Shown in pieces: positions 21,827 through 48,353 of a stretch of DNA of 57,280 nt (its first letter is position 1; each line of letters begins with the position of its first letter). A model generated the notes under the pieces. It was not told the DNA's origin. It saw only the letters and a program-made list of their open reading frames with translations, and searched no databases. The stretch lies in the sequence record PP627281.1. One strand, written 5' to 3'. The DNA comes from Escherichia phage KS_W4. The position numbers were made by a program, and so were the translations under genes.

Positions 21827-21850
21827 AAAGGGGCAAACGCCCCTTTCTTT
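21827..21850. terminator. bidirectional terminator between convergent blocks
   Basis: AAAGGGGC-AAAC-GCCCCTTTC hairpin between the end of the + block (21819) and the end of the - block (21849). Confidence 0.65.
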
Positions 21851-22127
21851 AACGCTTATGAAAAGCTGACAGGATTGCAAGTGTTACAGCACCCAATCCG
21901 ACGACGGTAGCATAAGTGAGTTGATGTTGAACTTTAACAAAACCGTAATAGGTGCTAGGGATCTCCACAATCCCAAACGCCATAGCAAAGCTGGTTCCAA
22001 GCAGTGCGACAGCAAGGGCGCGTAATAACGCCCTGCTCATTGCTGTGAAACCTTTCTCGTTACTGTCTCCGGTCATTATAACCACAATAATAAGAAACAG
22101 AGCAACAATTACTAGCAAGTATCCCAT
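21849..22127 (-). CDS. hypothetical membrane protein
   Basis: 92-aa hydrophobic ORF (ATG 22127; track begins at TTG 22130). Confidence 0.4.
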   Translation of the reverse strand: MGYLLVIVALFLIIVVIMTGDSNEKGFTAMSRALLRALAVALLGTSFAMAFGIVEIPSTYYGFVKVQHQLTYATVVGLGAVTLAILSAFHKR

Positions 22128-36739: not shown

Positions 36740-37609
36740 TTACTGCTGCCACGGCGGGACGGCTGCTTGTGCCGGATGCGGTTCAGCTTGCTGCTGTGGC
36801 TGCGCTTGCTGCTGCGGTGCCGCTGCCTGACCCGGCTGCGCTAACTGCTGCGCCCACGGTTGCTGAGCTGCTTCCGGTGCTACTGGCTGTTGTACCGGAG
36901 CTTGCTGAACTGGCTGCTGTGGCGCTGCGTTTTGAGCAGGGTTATCCCACGGCTGCGGTGCGGCATTCTGCCACGGTTGAGCTGCTGCGCCCTGCTGCGG
37001 TGCTGGTTGCTGAACAGTCTGCTGTTGCTGTACCGGAGCTTGCTGCTGTACAGGTGCTTGCTGTTGCTGAGCAAACGGGTTAGCTGCTGGCTGCTGCGGT
37101 GCTGCGCCCGGGAATGCTGGCTGCTGTGCTGGCGCACCTGCACCGAACGGGTTAGCTACTGCTGGAGCGCCCATTGATGGAGCCTCTGCTGCTTTTTCTG
37201 CATACTTAACCGGATCGTTAATGTTAGCGTAACCGTTAGGCTCGTTGCTGTCTTCATAACCTTCCTGAGAACGAACTTTCAGACGCAGGTTCAGCGGAAT
37301 GTTATGCAGTTGAGCAGGAGTATCCCAGCGAATTACACCAACTGCATGAGACAGAGCGCCCAGTTGCTCGTAAGCGATACGCACAGTATCTTCGTTGTCA
37401 TTGATGACGTTATAACGAGCAAAGATTTTACGCCCTTTAGCAAAACCGTCAATGATGCTAAACGTTACCTGGATCGCCATACCGCCATTTTTGGTCGGTT
37501 TAAATTCAGATGCTTCAATTACTGCTTTATACCAACCTTTCGGCAATGCGCCGTAAGAAGGTGCTTGATAGCTGCTCGCGTCAAAGTGGAAATTAGTTGG
37601 CATAGTCAT
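36740..37609 (-). CDS. ssDNA-binding/annealing-associated protein with Q/P/A-rich tail (putative)
   Basis: 289 aa; globular N-terminal about 150 aa followed by a low-complexity Gln/Pro/Ala-rich C-terminus; beside a Sak4-like ATPase. Confidence 0.35.
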   Translation of the reverse strand: MTMPTNFHFDASSYQAPSYGALPKGWYKAVIEASEFKPTKNGGMAIQVTFSIIDGFAKGRKIFARYNVINDNEDTVRIAYEQLGALSHAVGVIRWDTPAQLHNIPLNLRLKVRSQEGYEDSNEPNGYANINDPVKYAEKAAEAPSMGAPAVANPFGAGAPAQQPAFPGAAPQQPAANPFAQQQQAPVQQQAPVQQQQTVQQPAPQQGAAAQPWQNAAPQPWDNPAQNAAPQQPVQQAPVQQPVAPEAAQQPWAQQLAQPGQAAAPQQQAQPQQQAEPHPAQAAVPPWQQ

Positions 37610-40235: not shown

Positions 40236-41138
40236 TTACAGTTTGTCTTTGAACTCTTCGATATATTGCTCGATCGGATACTGCTTGCGCTTGAAACGAT
40301 CAAACAAGATTTTAGCAGATTCTACGTCTTCGTCGCTCTCTTTACTTGCGCCCGGTGCCATAAAATCACGCCATGTAAAACCGTTCAGATTATGCATCTT
40401 AGCGATGTGTTTATTGTAACGACTTTCCCAGTCCACACGCGGACCTTCCATCTTGCGTAAACCGCGCCCAAGCACCTGTACATATAAATCTTTCTGACGT
40501 TGTACAGCTTCGCCATTATAAGGTCCGGTTTTAAACTCAACAACACTACCGTTAAGATCTGCACCATCCGCAAAGTTGTGTAGCATAGTTTCAATAACGT
40601 CATTCAATGTTGGAACCGTCACTTTACCCTGGGCAATACCTGCCAAATAACCGACATTTTCTTCACCGTACAACTCGATCAGTTCTTTCTTGGTCGCTTC
40701 TGCTTCTTTATTTGCAGACAGAGCTAACATCTGTTGTTCGAACATGTGTTCCTGTTCCAGGAAGTGGGCATAGCGTTCTTCGTCCACTTTGCACACAATC
40801 CATTTATATTCAACATCCTTGCTGAAGTCCGGATACTGATCCACTTCTACTACTTCCGTAGTAAAGAACTTGCCGTTATATTGAATAACAACAGTATCGT
40901 TGCACACAATCCATTTATATTCAACATCCTTGCTGAAGTCCGGATACTGATCCACTTCTACTACTTCCGTAGTAAAGAACTTGCCGTTATATTGAATAAC
41001 AACAGTATCGCCCGGTTGTAATTCGTCGCTTTCCAGGGCACGGTAGGTATAAAGACGACCACCTGCTTCAAACTTAACTTTGACAGTTACAACACCTTTT
41101 AACAGGGCATGATAAGCTTTCTGAAATTCTTTACGCAT
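40236..41138 (-). CDS. hypothetical protein with internal 37-aa tandem duplication
   Basis: 300 aa; AGAGGAAA RBS; contains two adjacent copies of DTVVIQYNGKFFTTEVVEVDQYPDFSKDVEYKWIVC. Confidence 0.5.
   Translation of the reverse strand: MRKEFQKAYHALLKGVVTVKVKFEAGGRLYTYRALESDELQPGDTVVIQYNGKFFTTEVVEVDQYPDFSKDVEYKWIVCNDTVVIQYNGKFFTTEVVEVDQYPDFSKDVEYKWIVCKVDEERYAHFLEQEHMFEQQMLALSANKEAEATKKELIELYGEENVGYLAGIAQGKVTVPTLNDVIETMLHNFADGADLNGSVVEFKTGPYNGEAVQRQKDLYVQVLGRGLRKMEGPRVDWESRYNKHIAKMHNLNGFTWRDFMAPGASKESDEDVESAKILFDRFKRKQYPIEQYIEEFKDKL
40789..41010. repeat. perfect 111-bp tandem direct repeat (2 copies) inside CDS
   Basis: Copies at 40789-40899 and 40900-41010 are identical by eye; period 111 bp (37 codons), in frame. 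Confidence 0.85.
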
Positions 41139-44118: not shown

Positions 44119-44148
44119 ATAAAGGGCCGAAAGGCCCTTTATTTATTT
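44119..44148. terminator. bidirectional rho-independent terminator
   Basis: AAAGGGCC-GAAA-GGCCCTTT followed by ATTTATTTG. Confidence 0.7.
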
Positions 44149-46479
44149 GCTTAAGTCTTTGAAAACACTCTCAATTGACTCGTCTATATACCATCCCAAC
44201 CCCCTGAAATTACGCTTCAATGCATCCTCACGCGTAACCGGAACAAGCGCGCCCATGTCTACAAGTTGTTTGATAGTCAGGTCTGTCGCAGTACCTGCCC
44301 CCATCCTGTGATTCTTGAATGCTGCTAACCCGTAGGTTCTGCGTGTGATAGTTGCCTTCGGAATAATACCGTCAACTCGCAGCTCCTTACGATCACATGC
44401 AATTTTACCGCCAAGATAATCTTTGCAGACCTGGCAAATAGCCTTCACGCGCGTTTCATCATCACCGCCAATAGTACCTTTTTCCCATGCGTTGATCATG
44501 ATGTCTTGCCCATGCGTGACAAAATCTACCGCCCATTGCATGTGATTGGGCTGAACGACAGGATTGATCCAGTTTTCCCCCACTGCTAACAGGGAAGCAA
44601 GACGCAGAGCTTTAAGGTGCGCACGGTTCCACGGCTGACGGATAGCTTCGTCTTTTGTTGCGTTAATGTGTTCATCGCACAACAAGTTAAACTCCCGCTC
44701 GATCCTTGCAGCTTCAGGGCTTAACTGGACGGTAACGGTCTGGAACTTTGCCATTGTCACTAACGTGTGGTTAACAAGATGGCACACCATGTCCTTTAAT
44801 TGCTGTGGCATTGTAATTTCAGGATTCTCGTTTGCAGGAACACGATCCCCTTCATATTGCACAATGTGGAAACGGGACAAGAAACCGTCTTCCATCATTT
44901 CACGTGTTAACGCTTCAAAGAATGTGTCCGGTGTTGTTTCGCCCAAAATGCTGAACGCTACCCCTTCCATCGTTTTGGTATTATTAGCCTTATCAGAATA
45001 TCCGATACCGCCAACAACATCCATCGCACCAGATTTTTGATACACATCTGTAATAGTTTGCTTCAAGGTGTAGTTCGCAGTGCCTGGCTGAGCTGTCGCC
45101 ATACCTTTAATGGTTTTACCAAACTCACCGTTAATATTCACAAACGAAGTATGATCCGCAAAACTTTTACGCAAGGCAGGACCGGAAGCATAGTTAGTCA
45201 TGTCTACAAATTCATGCACTTGCGGCAATTGCTCGCCTACCTGCTTACAAATATAGCTGGGCCCAGCGTGAAGCATTTCTTTACCCACACCTGATCGGGC
45301 AATGAGCACAAAGTAACCGTTCAGCCCTGTGTTGGTGATAGTATTCCATACCTTACCGCATACACCTGACAAGAATGCTAACGATGCAGTGATTGCAATT
45401 TCTTTCACCGGACGCTGCGATGCTTTGTAGATATACTTCGCAAGCTCACCAGCAAGTCCCGGCGGCCATTCAATAGCTGTTGCATCAATGGACGTGCTTT
45501 CTGCAACTACTATTTCACCGGACGGGCTGACTGTGGTTACAGGCATTTCCGTTACCTGCTGCATTGCACTGTGTGCGGCTTGCATACGGGCAGCGTAATC
45601 CCGCGCCAGTGCCGCTACGTTTTCCTGGGCAATGCGTTCACGCTCCATACGACCGCGGCACATGCGCAAACAACGGTCAATATGAACATTGTTCTTATTA
45701 GCCTTCTCACGTTTGCCCAGTGCGCTGTAACGGAACAGACGACGACATTGCTCATTACTTTCTGTGTAGAATGCATACATAGAAATAAGAGCAAGATCTG
45801 CTTCAGACTGGGAAGGGAATCCCATTTCAACCCATTCGCCATTGAATAGGCGTGCATACTTATCCCCGTTGTCCGCTTCAAGTGCGCGCTGGTGAATAGT
45901 TGCATCGTCTTCTACCGGATCTTTTTCTACCAGTTCAATTTCATATGTCTTGCGCTGAAGATCAATTTCATTCACAAGCATAGTAAGGTAATGATCACGT
46001 TCTGCAACTGGTTTGTTATAGACAGGATTACCCGTGCAGATAATAAAACGCTCCTGACTATAAACCTCGACACCATCACGTCGACGTCCTTTGCCGATGT
46101 TTCCTCTTAACCACAGGTGGACGCCCAAGCCTGAGCGACTTACTTCGGTGTAAGTATCGAACGCGGTCATGATCTGTTCAAAGCGGCGCAACTGTTCCGG
46201 CGTCGTGTGCTTCTTGGGATCAGGTTCATTGGTTGCGTTCTTCACATCCAGGTCGATGCAGGTGAACGGGTCTTGCGCAGTAAGCACGAAGCCGATGTAA
46301 GGTTTATTGAAATGAGCGGCGCAACCTTTGGCAGCTTCAAACGTCATTAGCATATCCGGATCGGTAACGTCCGCAGCCATCAAACGTCCAATATCGTTAT
46401 CCCATACAAGCGGCTTTTTATCAGCATCGGCGATCGCCCATTGTGGGAAAGCTTTAATTTCAGCGGGAAACAGTTCCAT
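44143..46479 (-). CDS. primase-polymerase (AEP-type) / helicase replication protein
   Basis: 778 aa; N-terminal AEP-like motifs (CIDLDVKN; SRSGLGVHLW); central P-loop-like ARSGVGKE; large size typical of primase-helicase fusions. Confidence 0.55.
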   Translation of the reverse strand: MELFPAEIKAFPQWAIADADKKPLVWDNDIGRLMAADVTDPDMLMTFEAAKGCAAHFNKPYIGFVLTAQDPFTCIDLDVKNATNEPDPKKHTTPEQLRRFEQIMTAFDTYTEVSRSGLGVHLWLRGNIGKGRRRDGVEVYSQERFIICTGNPVYNKPVAERDHYLTMLVNEIDLQRKTYEIELVEKDPVEDDATIHQRALEADNGDKYARLFNGEWVEMGFPSQSEADLALISMYAFYTESNEQCRRLFRYSALGKREKANKNNVHIDRCLRMCRGRMERERIAQENVAALARDYAARMQAAHSAMQQVTEMPVTTVSPSGEIVVAESTSIDATAIEWPPGLAGELAKYIYKASQRPVKEIAITASLAFLSGVCGKVWNTITNTGLNGYFVLIARSGVGKEMLHAGPSYICKQVGEQLPQVHEFVDMTNYASGPALRKSFADHTSFVNINGEFGKTIKGMATAQPGTANYTLKQTITDVYQKSGAMDVVGGIGYSDKANNTKTMEGVAFSILGETTPDTFFEALTREMMEDGFLSRFHIVQYEGDRVPANENPEITMPQQLKDMVCHLVNHTLVTMAKFQTVTVQLSPEAARIEREFNLLCDEHINATKDEAIRQPWNRAHLKALRLASLLAVGENWINPVVQPNHMQWAVDFVTHGQDIMINAWEKGTIGGDDETRVKAICQVCKDYLGGKIACDRKELRVDGIIPKATITRRTYGLAAFKNHRMGAGTATDLTIKQLVDMGALVPVTREDALKRNFRGLGWYIDESIESVFKDLSK

Positions 46480-46488
46480 TGCAAATCC

Positions 46489-46734
46489 TTACTTAGAAGC
46501 TAGTTTTAACATGGATATAATTGCCGCCTTAATAGTATCAACTGTGTCCTGGACTTCTTGCTTGGACGCAAATGTGTTAACATATTCCACGCTATCCAAA
46601 ACTTTAACGTATAAGCGATAGCCTTCACCTTCCACATGTTCAACAACATAACCGTTGATGTCTAAAGACTTGCCAAAATAGCAACATGAAGATTTTGAAT
46701 TAACCTGTTTCATGAAAGGATCAATTGTAGCCAT
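46489..46734 (-). CDS. hypothetical protein
   Basis: about 81 aa from ATG 46734 with GGAGGA RBS. Confidence 0.4.
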   Translation of the reverse strand: MATIDPFMKQVNSKSSCCYFGKSLDINGYVVEHVEGEGYRLYVKVLDSVEYVNTFASKQEVQDTVDTIKAAIISMLKLASK

Positions 46735-47008
46735 AAATCTGTTTCCTCCGCCATTCTTCATATGCTGAATTATTTGCATCATATACTTCGCAAGCGTCTT
46801 TCATGCTGTCATACAGTCCAAGGAACGTTCGCCTTGTTTCCCCGCTTGCATCTACCCATGTTAATCGGGCGAGCCATTTACCCGTTTTGTAATCGAAAGT
46901 AACGCCCTCACGCCCGCTCACATTCTCCCGAGGCACTCGCGGTTTCCGGCGTGCAAGCCCGCGCCCTTTGAAGTTGCTCCCCGGCACCGTGCGACACTTA
47001 CGACCCAT
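46721..47008 (-). CDS. AP2-like DNA-binding domain protein (putative)
   Basis: about 95 aa from ATG 47008 (AGGAG RBS); basic N-terminus; GVTFDYKTGKWLARL...LGLYDS..A...Y pattern resembling AP2 domains. Confidence 0.4.
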   Translation of the reverse strand: MGRKCRTVPGSNFKGRGLARRKPRVPRENVSGREGVTFDYKTGKWLARLTWVDASGETRRTFLGLYDSMKDACEVYDANNSAYEEWRRKQIYGYN

Positions 47009-47198
47009 AAACCGCTCCTGCATACTGCTTTAAGACAGGCTCTGCAACTTCGCGCACGTAAACGTACACGTTAGCAATTTTAACTTCGCCCGGCAGCTTA
47101 CCGCGTAGCGAACACAACTTGCGACGGCTAAGACCGAAGCGCTTCTCAATTTCTGATGTGGTTATGTATTTAAGATCAAATTCTTTTTGATGGTTCAT
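46998..47198 (-). CDS. putative HTH DNA-binding protein
   Basis: 66-aa ORF with GGAGG RBS; ITTSEIEKRFGLSRRKL resembles a helix-turn-helix; first gene downstream of the repeat-rich non-coding region. Confidence 0.45.
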   Translation of the reverse strand: MNHQKEFDLKYITTSEIEKRFGLSRRKLCSLRGKLPGEVKIANVYVYVREVAEPVLKQYAGAVYGS

Positions 47199-47357
47199 AC
47201 CTACCTCCTAACAGCACTATACACAATCCATAGTAATGCAGCCACAATTATTCCACATGAAGTTATGATGTGAGAGGATTGTTAATATATAACCACATGT
47301 GATGGAAAGTTTTGGGTAGGAATAGTTGGTGCTCCACAGTTTGCGCAATGTGACCGA

Positions 47358-47394
47358 AAGTTTTGTGAGTTTTGCAAAGTTTTGCGAAGTTTTG
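47358..47394. repeat. tandem iteron-like repeats (RAGTTTTG x4, about 10-bp period)
   Basis: Copies begin at 47358, 47367, 47377 and 47387; additional copies at 47307 and about 47445; inverted copy CAAAACT near 47796. Confidence 0.7.
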
Positions 47395-47585
47395 TGGTGC
47401 CACTGTTGCTAAAAACTTTAATAAAAACAATAAGTTGGTGCAGTAAGTTTTTGCGTTTTGGGGTAAAACGCATTTTTTACCCTAACACCCAAATCCCGAC
47501 TGTTAGTAAAAAACGTATATAAATCAATAGCATAGATACTAAATGAATAGTGAATGGAATGGGTAGAAATCCAAATGATGGAAGT

Positions 47586-47600
47586 GGAATAAATTATTCC
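47586..47600. repeat. palindromic operator-like site GGAATAA-A-TTATTCC
   Basis: 15-bp near-perfect palindrome; surrounded by several TGGAAT(A) repeats between 47550 and 47630. Confidence 0.55.
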
Positions 47601-47866
47601 TACTTGATAGAATAATGGAATCGGTACTCCAGAGCGCAAAAACCTAAAACTTTCAGTCAACAGACTAAAAACGGATAGAAACTAAAAGTTAATAAGTAAT
47701 ACCATAAATATATATAAAATAAGGATTTATTAGTAATGTATATAGTACCTATTGGTATTATTTGAATGTTTTTGGGTCATTGTTAAAAAGTCCCAAAACT
47801 CACAAAAAGTGAAAGAATACAAATCGTGACAGGATTGTTAATGGAATATGGTGTATGGATATACAG

Positions 47867-47913
47867 TATTATTCCAGATTCCGGAATAATTGGAATAATG
47901 GAATAAATTATTG
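47867..47913. repeat. second cluster of GGAATAAT/ATTATTCC palindromic sites
   Basis: ATTATTCC (47868-47875) and GGAATAAT (47883-47890) are inverted; followed by GGAATAATGGAATAAATTATTG. Confidence 0.55.
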
Positions 47914-48026
47914 AACTATTGTGATCGGAAGGTATATCAAGCTATAATGCGCTTAATCGCGGGATATTGGAGGAGGACTTTATTGCGCGGTTAACCGGAC
48001 CAGTAGGAGGGCTGGCCCGGAGTAGT

Positions 48027-48353
48027 TTAAAGCTGTACAGGTATGAAGTGGGCTAGCGTATCGTCGGACATAATACCCGACAGTTTTTCGCTTACCCAGT
48101 CGGACCAAATGCTATCCGGTTCCTGGCGATGCACAAACCAGATTTCGGATGTGCCTTCTTTGCGCATCGGTTGCACTTCTGCAAGGAACTTGTCCTGCAT
48201 AAGACGGGTGAAGCATACGCTGGTCATTGGAACCGGCTTTTCGTCTTTATTGTAATAAGGGATTAATATTTTATTTCCGAAGTCGGCAACTTCATAAACT
48301 GTTCCTTTTCGCAAGCCTTGGATGTCAGTGTAAGAGCGAATGAACTTTTTCAT
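48027..48353 (-). CDS. hypothetical protein
   Basis: 108-aa ORF. Confidence 0.4.
   Translation of the reverse strand: MKKFIRSYTDIQGLRKGTVYEVADFGNKILIPYYNKDEKPVPMTSVCFTRLMQDKFLAEVQPMRKEGTSEIWFVHRQEPDSIWSDWVSEKLSGIMSDDTLAHFIPVQL

What the first reader, a model, noticed from the sequence alone, without database searches (positions are those of the whole stretch)
47199..48026. 820-bp repeat-rich non-coding region: candidate origin of replication / control hub
The region holds four tandem about 10-bp repeats RAGTTTTG (47358-47394), with further copies nearby and an inverted copy near 47796. It also holds multiple TGGAAT(A) repeats forming palindromes (GGAATAA-A-TTATTCC at 47586-47600; ATTATTCC/GGAATAAT at 47868-47890) and a very AT-rich stretch (about 47690-47770). 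Helical-turn iterons, palindromic operators and an AT-rich unwinding element are the classic origin architecture. The region is flanked by genes for an HTH protein, an AP2-like DNA-binding protein and the AEP primase-helicase.
Basis: partly seen in the sequence, partly recalled or inferred. Interest (0 to 1): 0.6.

Follow-up and report, generated by a model that had tools for sequence, protein, structure and literature searches.

The report
Probable replication origin of Seuratvirus phage
An 828-base gene-free stretch of this E. coli phage genome carries short repeated sites on both sides of the genome's most easily melted DNA, next to a primase-helicase gene, so it is most likely the phage's still-undescribed replication origin; the kind of origin is already known and nothing here has been tested at the bench.

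Summary
The window is a Seuratvirus (Queuovirinae) coliphage genome. Region 47199-48026 is non-coding: it has no Rfam or tRNA hit, and its ORFs are broken by frame-shifting indels in a relative. It is nevertheless more conserved than both flanking genes.

Three results point to an origin. First, it holds the genome-wide minimum of G+C and of duplex stability (47675-47774). Second, the cumulative GC-skew minimum lies at 47256, and genes on the same strand show opposite skew on the two sides. Third, two motif systems are swapped among 19 relatives. AAGTTTTG versus AGTTTAT tracks the C-terminal half of the primase-helicase, which models as an MCM-like AAA+ domain plus a winged helix. TGGAATA versus CCCTAT versus CACTAT tracks the small genes beside the gap.

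The closest described system is the SaPI origin: iterons flanking an AT-rich centre, read by the winged helix of a self-loading helicase.

Verdict: probable origin that also contains promoters. It is a new member of a known kind and is untested experimentally. Confidence is about 0.7; interest is moderate.

The parts
47199..48026 (.). Whole non-coding region: candidate origin plus inter-operon control region
   Evidence: No conserved ORF and no Rfam or tRNA hit. It is 96.6-98.9% identical in six close relatives whose flanking genes are 89-95% identical.
47247..47274 (-). Promoter-like site for the 66-aa gene/primase operon (CTCACA-16-AATAAT preceded by TG); its -10 overlaps a TGGAATAAT site
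   Evidence: Consensus scan. Retained in STP-SP5 as CTCACA...TGGAATAGT. Function is inferred.
47307..47314 (+). Isolated X1 site AAGTTTTG
   Evidence: Conserved in STP-SP5.
47357..47394 (+). Four tandem X1 iterons (A/G)AGTTTTG spaced 9-10 bp apart
   Evidence: Tandem Repeats Finder: period 10, 3.9 copies. Exact sites. Conserved in STP-SP5.
47445..47478 (+). Degenerate X1 site (AAGTTTTT) followed by a hairpin GCGTTTTGGGGTAAAACGC and a T-run (terminator-like)
   Evidence: The hairpin is not conserved in STP-SP5, which has another AAGTTTTG copy here, so a terminator role is doubtful.
47553..47626 (.). Left cluster of TGGAAT(A) sites (47555, 47585, 47616; spacing 30-31 bp), including the palindrome GGAATAAATTATTCC at 47586-47600
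   Evidence: The block 47586-47624 is nearly invariant in STP-SP5.
47637..47662 (-). Start of the segment shared by all Seuratviruses; holds an inverted X1 site TAAAACTT (47645-47652). X2 phages have ATAAACTTATAAACTT at this position
   Evidence: Homology boundary at 47637 in 25 records. Sites.
47675..47774 (.). AT-rich core, candidate DNA-unwinding element. The conserved block ATAAATATATATAAAATAAGGATTTATT...GGTATTATTTGA also contains a + strand extended -10-like TGGTATTAT (47753-47761)
   Evidence: Genome-wide G+C minimum and least stable duplex. Conserved in all motif types.
47768..47807 (.). Inverted repeat right of the core: GTTTTTGGGTC ... GTCCCAAAAC, then CAAAACTCACAAAA (X1 sites in opposite orientations). 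X2 phages carry GAGTTTAT-N9-ATAAACTC here
   Evidence: (I2, I13).
47839..47912 (.). Right cluster of TGGAAT/GGAATAA sites (47842, 47871 on the - strand, 47883, 47891, 47899)
   Evidence: Motif columns are 96% conserved against STP-SP5, other columns 79%. Replaced by an unrelated segment in types B and C, except in Dru_SM1.
47919..47948 (+). Promoter-like TTGTGA-18-TATAAT present in every relative examined; it sits directly upstream of a + strand HNH endonuclease gene in STP-SP5, SLUR76 and Dru_SM1
   Evidence: Its role in the window is unknown.
47995..48020 (-). GC-rich hairpin CCGGGCCAG/CTGGTCCGG after the stop codon of the 108-aa gene (terminator-like end of the upstream leftward operon)
   Evidence: Minus-strand fold z = -2.64. 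Annotated as a rho-independent terminator in SA126VB and SA80RD.
46998..47198 (-). 66-aa protein (phrog_11967) with a MerR/Xis-like winged-HTH model; candidate reader of the TGGAATA sites
   Evidence: Its sequence clusters by Y-motif type.
46721..47023 (-). 100-aa AP2-like ORF, probably a remnant of an HNH-AP2 homing endonuclease
   Evidence: AP2 match at E = 4e-4, below Pfam's cut-off. It matches only the AP2 part of HNH endonuclease PHROGs.
44143..46479 (-). 778-aa primase-helicase: AEP prim-pol plus helix-bundle domain (aa 1-289), MCM-like AAA+ domain, and C-terminal winged helix (about aa 674-778); candidate initiator that reads the X sites
   Evidence: Co-variation.

Best explanation
The region is most likely the phage's origin of replication, built like the origins of SaPI-type self-loading helicases.

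Proposed mechanism (inferred unless marked otherwise):
- The C-terminal winged-helix domain of the phage's own primase-helicase (AEP primase, MCM-like AAA+ ATPase, winged helix) binds the AAGTTTTG ('X') sites. These lie on both sides of the AT-rich core and in a 10-bp-phased array about 300 bp to its left.
- Binding melts the core at 47675-47774. Helicase rings load for bidirectional replication, and the fused primase starts DNA synthesis.
- A second set of sites, TGGAAT(A) ('Y'), is read by a product of the small-gene module beside the gap. The most parsimonious candidate is the 66-aa MerR/Xis-like protein. One Y site overlaps the -10 element of that operon's promoter, which would couple origin architecture to autoregulation.

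Shown here: the sequence anatomy, its statistics, its conservation, the composition signals, the co-variation patterns and the predicted protein folds.
Inferred: who binds what, the melting, and origin activity itself.
For: 1. Unwinding element. The AT-rich core is the global minimum of G+C and of duplex stability in 57 kb, and it is conserved in every relative.

2. Strand composition. The cumulative GC skew has its global minimum at 47256. Minus-strand genes left of the gap have a mean + strand skew of -0.107, and minus-strand genes right of it +0.050 (Mann-Whitney p = 2e-4). At third codon positions the values are -0.05 and +0.30 (p = 0.002). The flip therefore does not follow transcription direction, which only changes at about 50.7 kb. 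Hafnia phage yong3, whose helicase half is 54% identical, shows the same pattern, with its skew minimum 110 bp from its equivalent gap.

3. Selection on non-coding DNA. The gap is 96.6-98.9% identical in six relatives whose flanking genes are 89-95% identical. Against STP-SP5, motif columns are 85% conserved and other columns 68% (p = 5e-5).

4. Cognate specificity.
   - In 19 phages, the X1 motif (GTTTTG, 3 or more copies) always accompanies the window-type helicase half.
   - The X2 motif (GTTTAT, 6 or more copies) always accompanies the slur01-type helicase half.
   - The N-terminal 289 aa of the primase are 100% identical between the two types. The predicted winged-helix region (aa 674-778) is only 43% identical.
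   - Y motifs (GGAATA, CCCTAT, CACTAT) follow the phrog_11967/phrog_27223 module instead, and that module's tree is incongruent with the helicase tree.

5. The initiator.
   - The model of aa 290-778 has pLDDT 89.9.
   - The best PDB sequence hit is SaPI5 PriRep5, 7OLA.
   - SaPI origins have 6-12 short iterons flanking an AT-rich centre and are read by the Rep winged helix (PMC9371898).

6. Wider family. Vid5, yong3 and a metagenomic relative each have a similar gap at the head of the replication operon. Each gap has an AT core flanked by GTTT(T)ATA(GG)-type repeats.
Against: - There are no experimental data of any kind, and no paper in the searched library describes an origin for this group.
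- The skew contrast rests on six small early genes, which may simply have a different composition.
- The 19 phages collapse to about four lineages, so perfect concordance between X motif and helicase type has roughly a 1-in-8 chance expectation. Physical linkage is not fully excluded.
- Operator-regulator pairs would show the same kind of co-variation.
- The region also holds promoter-like sites, so a regulatory role cannot be separated from an origin role.
- X-site orientation around the core only partly matches the SaPI rule.
- The origin would lie upstream of the operon, about 720 bp from the primase gene, not immediately downstream of rep as in SaPIs.
- Dru_SM1 carries the right-hand GGAATA cluster without the window-type small genes.
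- No DnaA box (one 1-mismatch hit only) and no IHF consensus site was found.
Confidence: 0.7

Rival explanations
1. The region is purely a transcriptional control region between two operons. The repeats are operators for phage regulators (the MerR/Xis-like 66-aa protein and others). The AT-rich block is a promoter with an UP element, and replication starts elsewhere.
For: - A promoter-like site for the 66-aa gene overlaps a TGGAATAAT site. A + strand promoter-like site is conserved in all relatives. An extended -10-like TGGTATTAT lies inside the AT core, and a terminator-like hairpin closes the upstream operon.
- The adjacent small protein has a regulator-type fold.
- Y motifs co-vary with that gene module, as operators would.
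Against: - It does not explain the GC-skew flip among co-directional genes.
- It does not explain why the X motif follows the helicase C-terminal half rather than the neighbouring regulators.
- It does not explain why about 20 sites are spread over 700 bp on both sides of the genome's least stable DNA.
- The promoter scan found no more sites than in shuffled sequence: 4 found against 5.5 expected.
Confidence: 0.17
2. The region encodes one or more non-coding RNAs. One example would be a GGA-rich + strand transcript from the conserved promoters acting as a protein sponge. Another would be a short RNA running from the 47919-47948 promoter to the 47995-48020 hairpin.
For: - Two + strand promoter-like elements are conserved in all relatives.
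- There are many UGGAAU/GGA motifs on the + strand.
- The + strand fold of 47899-48048 has z = -1.83, with 7 of 200 shuffles folding at least as well.
Against: - No Rfam family matches, even at E <= 10, beyond chance-level hits.
- Fold z-scores across the region are unremarkable, from -1.8 to +1.4 on the + strand.
- The GGA-rich segments are replaced by unrelated sequence in type B and C phages, while the AT core and X sites persist.
- The terminator-like hairpin at 47452 is not conserved.
Confidence: 0.05
3. The region is a packaging signal (pac or cos, with terminase small-subunit binding repeats).
For: Packaging sites can also combine short repeats with bendable AT-rich DNA (general knowledge). 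The genome ends of this phage are not known to me.
Against: - The region lies about 10 kb from the terminase genes (13-2107), inside the replication/early gene block.
- Its repeats co-vary with replication proteins, not with any packaging gene tested.
- Packaging does not produce a GC-skew switch.
Confidence: 0.04
4. The region is non-functional mosaic debris left by recombination and homing-endonuclease traffic, and the repeats are incidental.
For: - The locus is a recombination hot spot with HNH genes inserted or lost on both sides.
- The AP2-like ORF looks like an endonuclease remnant.
Against: - The gap is more conserved than the genes around it, and its motif positions are preferentially conserved.
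- A gap of 630-830 bp with the same layout is kept in all 19 relatives and in more distant genera.
Confidence: 0.03

Closest known systems
SaPI replication origins and their Rep / PriRep self-loading initiator-helicases (Staphylococcus aureus pathogenicity islands; PMC9371898)
   Same: - Short iterons (5-8 nt) in many copies on both sides of a central AT-rich region.
- An initiator that is itself the replicative helicase and reads the iterons through a C-terminal winged helix.
- In SaPI5 the primase is fused to the helicase. PriRep5 (7OLA) is the best PDB sequence hit of the window's primase.
- Iteron specificity differs between elements along with the Rep protein.
   Different: - Sequence similarity to PriRep5 covers the primase domain only.
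- The helicase here models as MCM-like (as in SaPIbov1 Rep2 and SCCmec Cch), not SF3 as in PriRep5.
- The candidate origin lies upstream of the operon, about 720 bp from the gene, not immediately downstream of rep.
- A second motif system with its own co-varying small proteins is present.
- The host is a virulent coliphage, not a satellite.
Satellite phage P4 ori/crr and the alpha primase-helicase (from my own knowledge)
   Same: One polypeptide combines primase, helicase and a C-terminal origin-binding domain. It binds octamer iterons found in two separated clusters in direct and inverted orientation.
   Different: The P4 alpha protein has a different primase type and an SF3 helicase. There is no sequence relationship in the origin. 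P4 needs two cis regions 4.5 kb apart.
Iteron plasmid origins (pSC101, P1, F, RK2) with autoregulated Rep
   Same: Direct repeats phased at about one helical turn lie next to an AT-rich unwinding element. A binding site overlaps the promoter of the adjacent replication operon.
   Different: No Rep_3-type initiator is present, and there are no DnaA boxes or IHF site. The iterons here are 7-8 bp rather than 17-22 bp. The helicase is phage-encoded and presumably self-loading.
MCM/ORC and viral SF3 origins (SV40, papillomavirus)
   Same: An AAA+ helicase with an attached DNA-reading domain assembles on inverted short sites flanking an easily melted segment. MCM helicases are the best structural match of the helicase half.
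   Different: The resemblance is structural only, at 10-17% identity. There is no separate ORC or loader known here. Bacterial virus context.
Phage lambda ori and O protein
   Same: Four phased iterons plus an AT-rich segment, with specificity that is swapped among relatives together with the initiator.
   Different: The lambda origin lies inside the initiator gene, uses 18-19 bp iterons, and recruits host DnaB through the P protein. None of these apply here.

Membership tests
SaPI-type origin (iterons around an AT-rich centre, read by a self-loading initiator-helicase) | Multiple short (5-8 nt) iterons, 6-12 or more copies | tested here: met
   Seven AAGTTTTG-like sites on the + strand and three inverted sites within one mismatch. 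Enrichment over shuffles is shown.
SaPI-type origin (iterons around an AT-rich centre, read by a self-loading initiator-helicase) | Central AT-rich region with iterons on both sides, at least two per side in opposite orientation | tested here: inconclusive
   The AT core at 47675-47774 is the global minimum. X sites lie on both sides: 47645 (-) on the left, 47768 (+, degenerate) and 47794 (-) on the right. The main array is 280 bp to the left, and the orientations only partly fit the rule.
SaPI-type origin (iterons around an AT-rich centre, read by a self-loading initiator-helicase) | [quoted passage not shown] | tested here: not met
   The region lies upstream of the operon. The primase-helicase start codon (46479) is 720 bp from the gap, with three small ORFs in between.
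SaPI-type origin (iterons around an AT-rich centre, read by a self-loading initiator-helicase) | Initiator is a hexameric-type helicase with a C-terminal winged-helix DNA-binding domain | tested here: met
SaPI-type origin (iterons around an AT-rich centre, read by a self-loading initiator-helicase) | Iteron sequence is specific to the cognate initiator | tested here: met
   This is comparative evidence only. X1 versus X2 motifs match the helicase C-terminal type in 19 of 19 phages, which represent about four lineages. The winged-helix region is the most divergent part, at 43% identity.
SaPI-type origin (iterons around an AT-rich centre, read by a self-loading initiator-helicase) | Initiator binds and melts the origin, and the origin supports replication | not testable with these tools
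   Requires EMSA or footprinting, permanganate probing, plasmid amplification or marker-frequency analysis.
Sequence homologue of SaPI5 PriRep5 | Significant sequence similarity over the whole protein | tested here: not met
   The phmmer hit to 7OLA has E = 7e-11 but covers only aa 59-264, the primase domain. The helicase half is MCM-like, whereas PriRep5 is SF3.
Iteron-plasmid / oriC-type origin | DnaA boxes, an IHF site and a Rep_3-type initiator | tested here: not met
   Only one 1-mismatch DnaA-box hit and no IHF consensus site. There is no Rep_3 or similar Pfam hit in the neighbouring proteins.
Lambda-type origin | Iterons located inside the initiator gene | tested here: not met
   The region is non-coding.
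Described structured RNA (Rfam 15) | Match to a covariance model at the gathering score | tested here: not met
   There are 0 matches at the gathering score. At E <= 10 there are only three chance-level hits of 16-18 bits.

The most novel reading that the evidence does not exclude
The origin may be 'two-keyed'. An MCM-like primase-helicase would read one motif family (AAGTTTTG or AGTTTAT) through its winged helix. A small MerR/Xis-like protein, joined in other lineages by phrog_27223, would read a second family (TGGAATA, CCCTAT or CACTAT). The two keys are exchanged independently by recombination. This would give Seuratviruses replicon-specific, mutually incompatible origins, a bacterial-virus counterpart of initiator-plus-licensing-factor logic, and possibly a basis for competition between co-infecting relatives.
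Probability: 0.3. Interest if true: 0.65.

Novelty: new member of a known kind. Interest (0 to 1): 0.5.

Why it matters
- No origin is described for Seuratvirus or Queuovirinae in the literature I could search. These phages belong to the widely used BASEL collection (Bas21-25) and carry 7-deazaguanine-modified DNA.
- A defined origin with a cognate self-loading MCM-like primase-helicase would give an E. coli-tractable model for MCM-type helicase loading.
- It would also provide a handle for phage engineering, such as origin-bearing plasmids and replication-based selection.
- It would explain one of the sharpest mosaic junctions in these genomes: an exchange of origin specificity.

Tried and rejected
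- **Rfam and tRNA.** The Rfam scan (gathering score, then E <= 10 on the region) and the ARAGORN tRNA/tmRNA scan found nothing.
- **Coding potential.** The 63-aa ORF annotated in OddieOddie and the 80-aa TTG ORF are broken by non-triplet indels in STP-SP5, so I rejected them.
- **RNA folding.** Sixteen 150-nt windows on both strands were folded. Only the terminator region stands out, at z = -2.64.
- **The + strand terminator-like hairpin at 47452-47478.** It is not conserved in STP-SP5, so I rejected it as a conserved element.
- **DnaA boxes and IHF sites.** Absent.
- **'The AP2-like protein reads GGAATAA'.** Not supported. Dru_SM1 has the right-hand GGAATA cluster without the window-type small genes, and SA80RD has the HNH gene at that position without GGAATA.
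- **A second TGGAAT cluster at 22.2-22.7 kb.** It lies in coding sequence and I judged it chance.
- **NrS-1 prim-pol recognition sites.** GTGA and GTGG occur inside two iterons. The motif is too short to weigh, so I kept it only as a lead.
- **IMG/VR scan with the primase.** It gave only four loci.
- **Homologue search with the 66-aa protein.** It gave only five close relatives.
- **Profile search of the 66-aa family against PDB sequences.** Nothing significant.
- **Pfam on the helicase C-terminal 119 aa.** Nothing.
- **Literature.** Searches for a Seuratvirus origin, promoters or transcriptome found nothing relevant.
Full report
**Identity of the window.** The window is a complete or nearly complete genome of an Escherichia phage of the genus Seuratvirus (subfamily Queuovirinae). 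The region itself is 96.6-98.9% identical to ECP2304, PLYYY01, OddieOddie, GottfriedDienst (Bas21), VogelGryff, Skure and SLUR25, and 34 phage records hold a match. Region 47199-48026 lies between two minus-strand genes. On the right is a 108-aa gene (48027-48353, phrog_25978) that ends a leftward block of small genes. On the left is a 66-aa gene (46998-47198, phrog_11967). That gene is followed by a 100-aa AP2-like ORF, a 97-aa ORF and a 778-aa primase-helicase at 44143-46479 with PHROG 'DNA primase', an NrS-1-type helix-bundle domain and DUF3987.

**Check of the observation.**
- Tandem Repeats Finder reports a period-10 array at 47357-47394.
- Exact AGTTTTG sites lie at 47308, 47359, 47368, 47378 and 47388, with an inverted copy at 47794.
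- GGAATAA and TGGAAT sites form the stated palindromes.
- The region is 1.45% of the window but holds 6 of 15 AGTTTTG sites, 7 of 17 GGAATAA sites and 8 of 40 TGGAAT sites.
- Eleven 7-mers occur four or more times, against a mean of 1.25 and a maximum of 8 in 500 dinucleotide-preserving shuffles.
- The AT-rich stretch is the lowest-G+C window of the whole sequence at every scale from 60 to 828 bp. It is also the least stable 100-bp duplex, about 4.5 sd from the mean.

**Is the region non-coding?** Yes. There is no Rfam or tRNA match. The short ORFs inside it are broken by indels of 10, 11, 2 and 1 bp in Salmonella phage STP-SP5, the most divergent relative that shares the same layout. Even so, the gap is more conserved than the genes around it. 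In six close relatives it is 96.6-98.9% identical, while the 66-aa and 108-aa genes are 89-95% identical. Against STP-SP5, columns inside the two motifs are 85% conserved and the other columns 68% (Fisher p = 5e-5). The DNA sequence itself is therefore under selection, and that selection is concentrated on the repeats and the AT core.

**Composition signal.** The cumulative GC skew of the window reaches its global minimum at 47256 and its maximum at 21960.
- The flip does not coincide with the change of coding strand, which happens at about 50.7 kb.
- The 29 minus-strand genes left of the gap have a mean + strand skew of -0.107. The six minus-strand genes right of it have +0.050 (Mann-Whitney p = 2e-4).
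- At third codon positions the values are -0.05 and +0.30 (p = 0.002).
- This is what bidirectional replication from the gap would produce, with termination near 22 kb on a circularised genome.
- In Hafnia phage yong3, a more distant relative, the local skew minimum again falls 110 bp from the equivalent gap.
- The caveat is that the contrast rests on six small early genes.

**Comparative anatomy.** This was the most informative result. All relatives keep a gap of 630-830 bp here, but it is a mosaic.
- Right part (47637-48026). It is shared by all relatives. It contains the AT core, an inverted repeat just right of the core, a + strand promoter-like TTGTGA-18-TATAAT (47919-47948) and the terminator-like hairpin of the upstream operon.
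- Left part. It is replaced together with the adjacent genes.
- 'Y' motifs. These are TGGAATA in the window group and STP-SP5 (type A), CCCTAT in Seurat, CAjan, slur01 and SLUR76 (type B), and CACTAT in CSP1, Greed, SA126VB, Dru_SM1, WildeMaa, SA80RD, phiG7, SeppeHuegi and others (type C).
- 'X' motifs. These are AAGTTTTG (X1) or AGTTTAT (X2). They occur in the middle of the left part, at the left edge of the conserved part, and in the inverted repeat right of the AT core.
- The counts are clear-cut in 19 phages.

**What co-varies with what.**
- The small MerR/Xis-like protein (phrog_11967) and, where present, the 250-270-aa protein phrog_27223 cluster by Y type. Types A, B and C are 44-64% identical to one another, and the two C sub-lineages are 70-72% identical.
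- The primase-helicase follows a different tree. Its first 289 residues are 100% identical in all lineages. Residues 341-673 are 69% identical and residues 674-778 only 43% identical between two allelic forms.
- The window-type form is found in every X1 phage, including six type-C phages. The slur01-type form is found in every X2 phage, including six other type-C phages.
- So the X motif follows the helicase C-terminus and the Y motif follows the small-gene module, and the two have been reassorted.
- Because the 19 phages reduce to about four lineages, the concordance alone is weak statistically, roughly 1 in 8 by chance. One further detail adds weight: the X sites embedded between two CACTAT clusters still match the helicase type.

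**The proteins.**
- An AlphaFold model of primase residues 290-778, built on 50 homologues, is confident, with pLDDT 89.9.
- By sequence, the best solved relative is SaPI5 PriRep5 (7OLA), although only over the primase domain.
- The paper describing that structure states that SaPI Reps are self-loading initiator-helicases. Their C-terminal winged helix reads 5-6-nt iterons, and 6-12 iterons flank a central AT-rich region (PMC9371898). That is the architecture seen here.
- The 66-aa protein models at pLDDT 83 as a small MerR/excisionase-like winged HTH. Its nearest folds are RacA, BldC and Tn916 Xis, with TM-scores of 0.56-0.69 but non-significant E-values. Members of that fold class are known to bind arrays of short repeats (my own knowledge).
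- The AP2-like ORF matches only the AP2 part of HNH-AP2 endonuclease families, and no link to GGAATAA could be shown.

**Wider family.** More distant phages with the same primase-helicase have an AT-rich core flanked by GTTT(T)ATA(GG)-type repeats in a 500-700-bp gap at the head of the replication operon. These are Hafnia phage yong3, Pantoea phage Vid5 and a metagenomic contig. The X-like motif therefore changes slowly along with a conserved protein, whereas the Y motifs and their proteins are lineage-specific.

**Most likely mechanism.** The region is the phage origin. The winged helix of the primase-helicase would bind X sites on both sides of the AT core and in the phased array to its left. 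It would then melt the core, load helicase rings for bidirectional forks, and prime with its own AEP domain. The Y sites would be bound by the small-gene module, most simply the 66-aa protein. One Y site overlaps the -10 element of the promoter-like site at 47247-47274, which would tie origin architecture to autoregulation of the replication operon. The anatomy, statistics, conservation, skew, co-variation and folds are shown here. The binding partners, the melting and origin activity are inferred. My confidence is about 0.7.

**Rivals.**
- A purely transcriptional control region (0.17) explains the promoters and the Y-module co-variation. It does not explain the skew flip, the helicase-X link or the global stability minimum.
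- Non-coding RNA (0.05) is disfavoured by the Rfam results, the ordinary fold z-scores and the replacement of the GGA-rich segments in other lineages.
- A packaging site (0.04) and mosaic debris (0.03) are disfavoured by location, co-variation and conservation.

**What remains unexplained.**
- The role of the + strand promoter-like site conserved in all relatives is unknown. It sits directly upstream of an HNH gene in three phages but faces only the terminator hairpin and antisense DNA in the window.
- It is unclear whether the extended -10-like element inside the AT core fires.

**Novelty.** No paper in the searched library describes an origin for this phage group. The kind of element is known: an iteron origin served by a self-loading helicase with a winged helix. 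I therefore rate this a new member of a known kind. Two features go beyond the textbook case, namely the fused AEP-MCM-winged-helix initiator in a virulent coliphage and the two independently exchangeable motif systems.

Noticed in passing
window 40789-41010: A perfect tandem duplication of a 111-bp unit (2.0 copies, 100% match) lies inside the minus-strand ORF 40236-41138. It would duplicate 37 amino acids in frame.
   Followed up: no
window 44143-46479 (primase-helicase): The gene has a sharp mosaic junction. Residues 1-289 are 100% identical between the window and slur01 lineages, residues 341-673 are 69% identical and residues 674-778 are 43% identical. The perfectly conserved prim-pol half may serve as the recombination site for exchanging origin specificity.
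   Followed up: yes
L011 3994-4470; L013 3701-4030; L014 2940-3269 (right edge of the gap in STP-SP5, SLUR76, Dru_SM1): HNH homing-endonuclease genes are inserted on the + strand directly after the conserved TTGTGA-18-TATAAT promoter-like site, replacing the 108-aa gene. Other HNH genes sit between the primase and phrog_11967 genes in Dru_SM1 and SA80RD. The locus is a hot spot of endonuclease traffic.
   Followed up: partly
window 46721-47023: The 100-aa 'AP2-like' ORF matches only the AP2 portion of HNH-AP2 endonuclease PHROGs (phrog_99, phrog_4578). It overlaps both neighbouring ORFs by 26 and 62 nt, so it is probably a degenerate endonuclease remnant rather than a dedicated origin-binding protein.
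   Followed up: partly
window 47358-47397: Two iterons read AAGTTTTGTGA and AAGTTTTGTGG. GTGA and GTGG are the efficient template recognition sites reported for the NrS-1 prim-pol (PMC8718748), whose helix-bundle domain family is detected in this primase. This could be coincidence.
   Followed up: no
window 36777-37063: In-frame tandem repeats of 9-18 bp (GCTTGCTGC and TGCTGTACAGGAGCTTGC types) occur on the + strand within minus-strand ORF 36740-37609. Apart from the gap itself, these are the only windows in the genome with a comparable 7-mer repeat count.
   Followed up: no
window 21828-21960: A strong bidirectional terminator-like hairpin (aaaaggggcaaacgcccctttctt) lies where the + and - gene blocks converge, about 110 bp to the left of the cumulative GC-skew maximum (21960). 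This is the candidate replication terminus if the 47.7-kb origin is real.
   Followed up: partly
L028 3112-3818; L007 230-870; L029 1-530: More distant phages with the same primase-helicase (Hafnia yong3, Pantoea Vid5, a Logan contig) have AT-rich cores flanked by GTTT(T)ATA(GG)/CCCCTATA repeats at the head of the replication operon. In Vid5 and the Logan contig this lies about 5 kb upstream of the primase gene.
   Followed up: partly
OR880647.1 (Escherichia phage ECP2304, 63.6 kb record): The region occurs twice in this record, which is 4-6 kb longer than its relatives. This is probably an assembly overlap of a circularly closed contig rather than a biological duplication.
   Followed up: no
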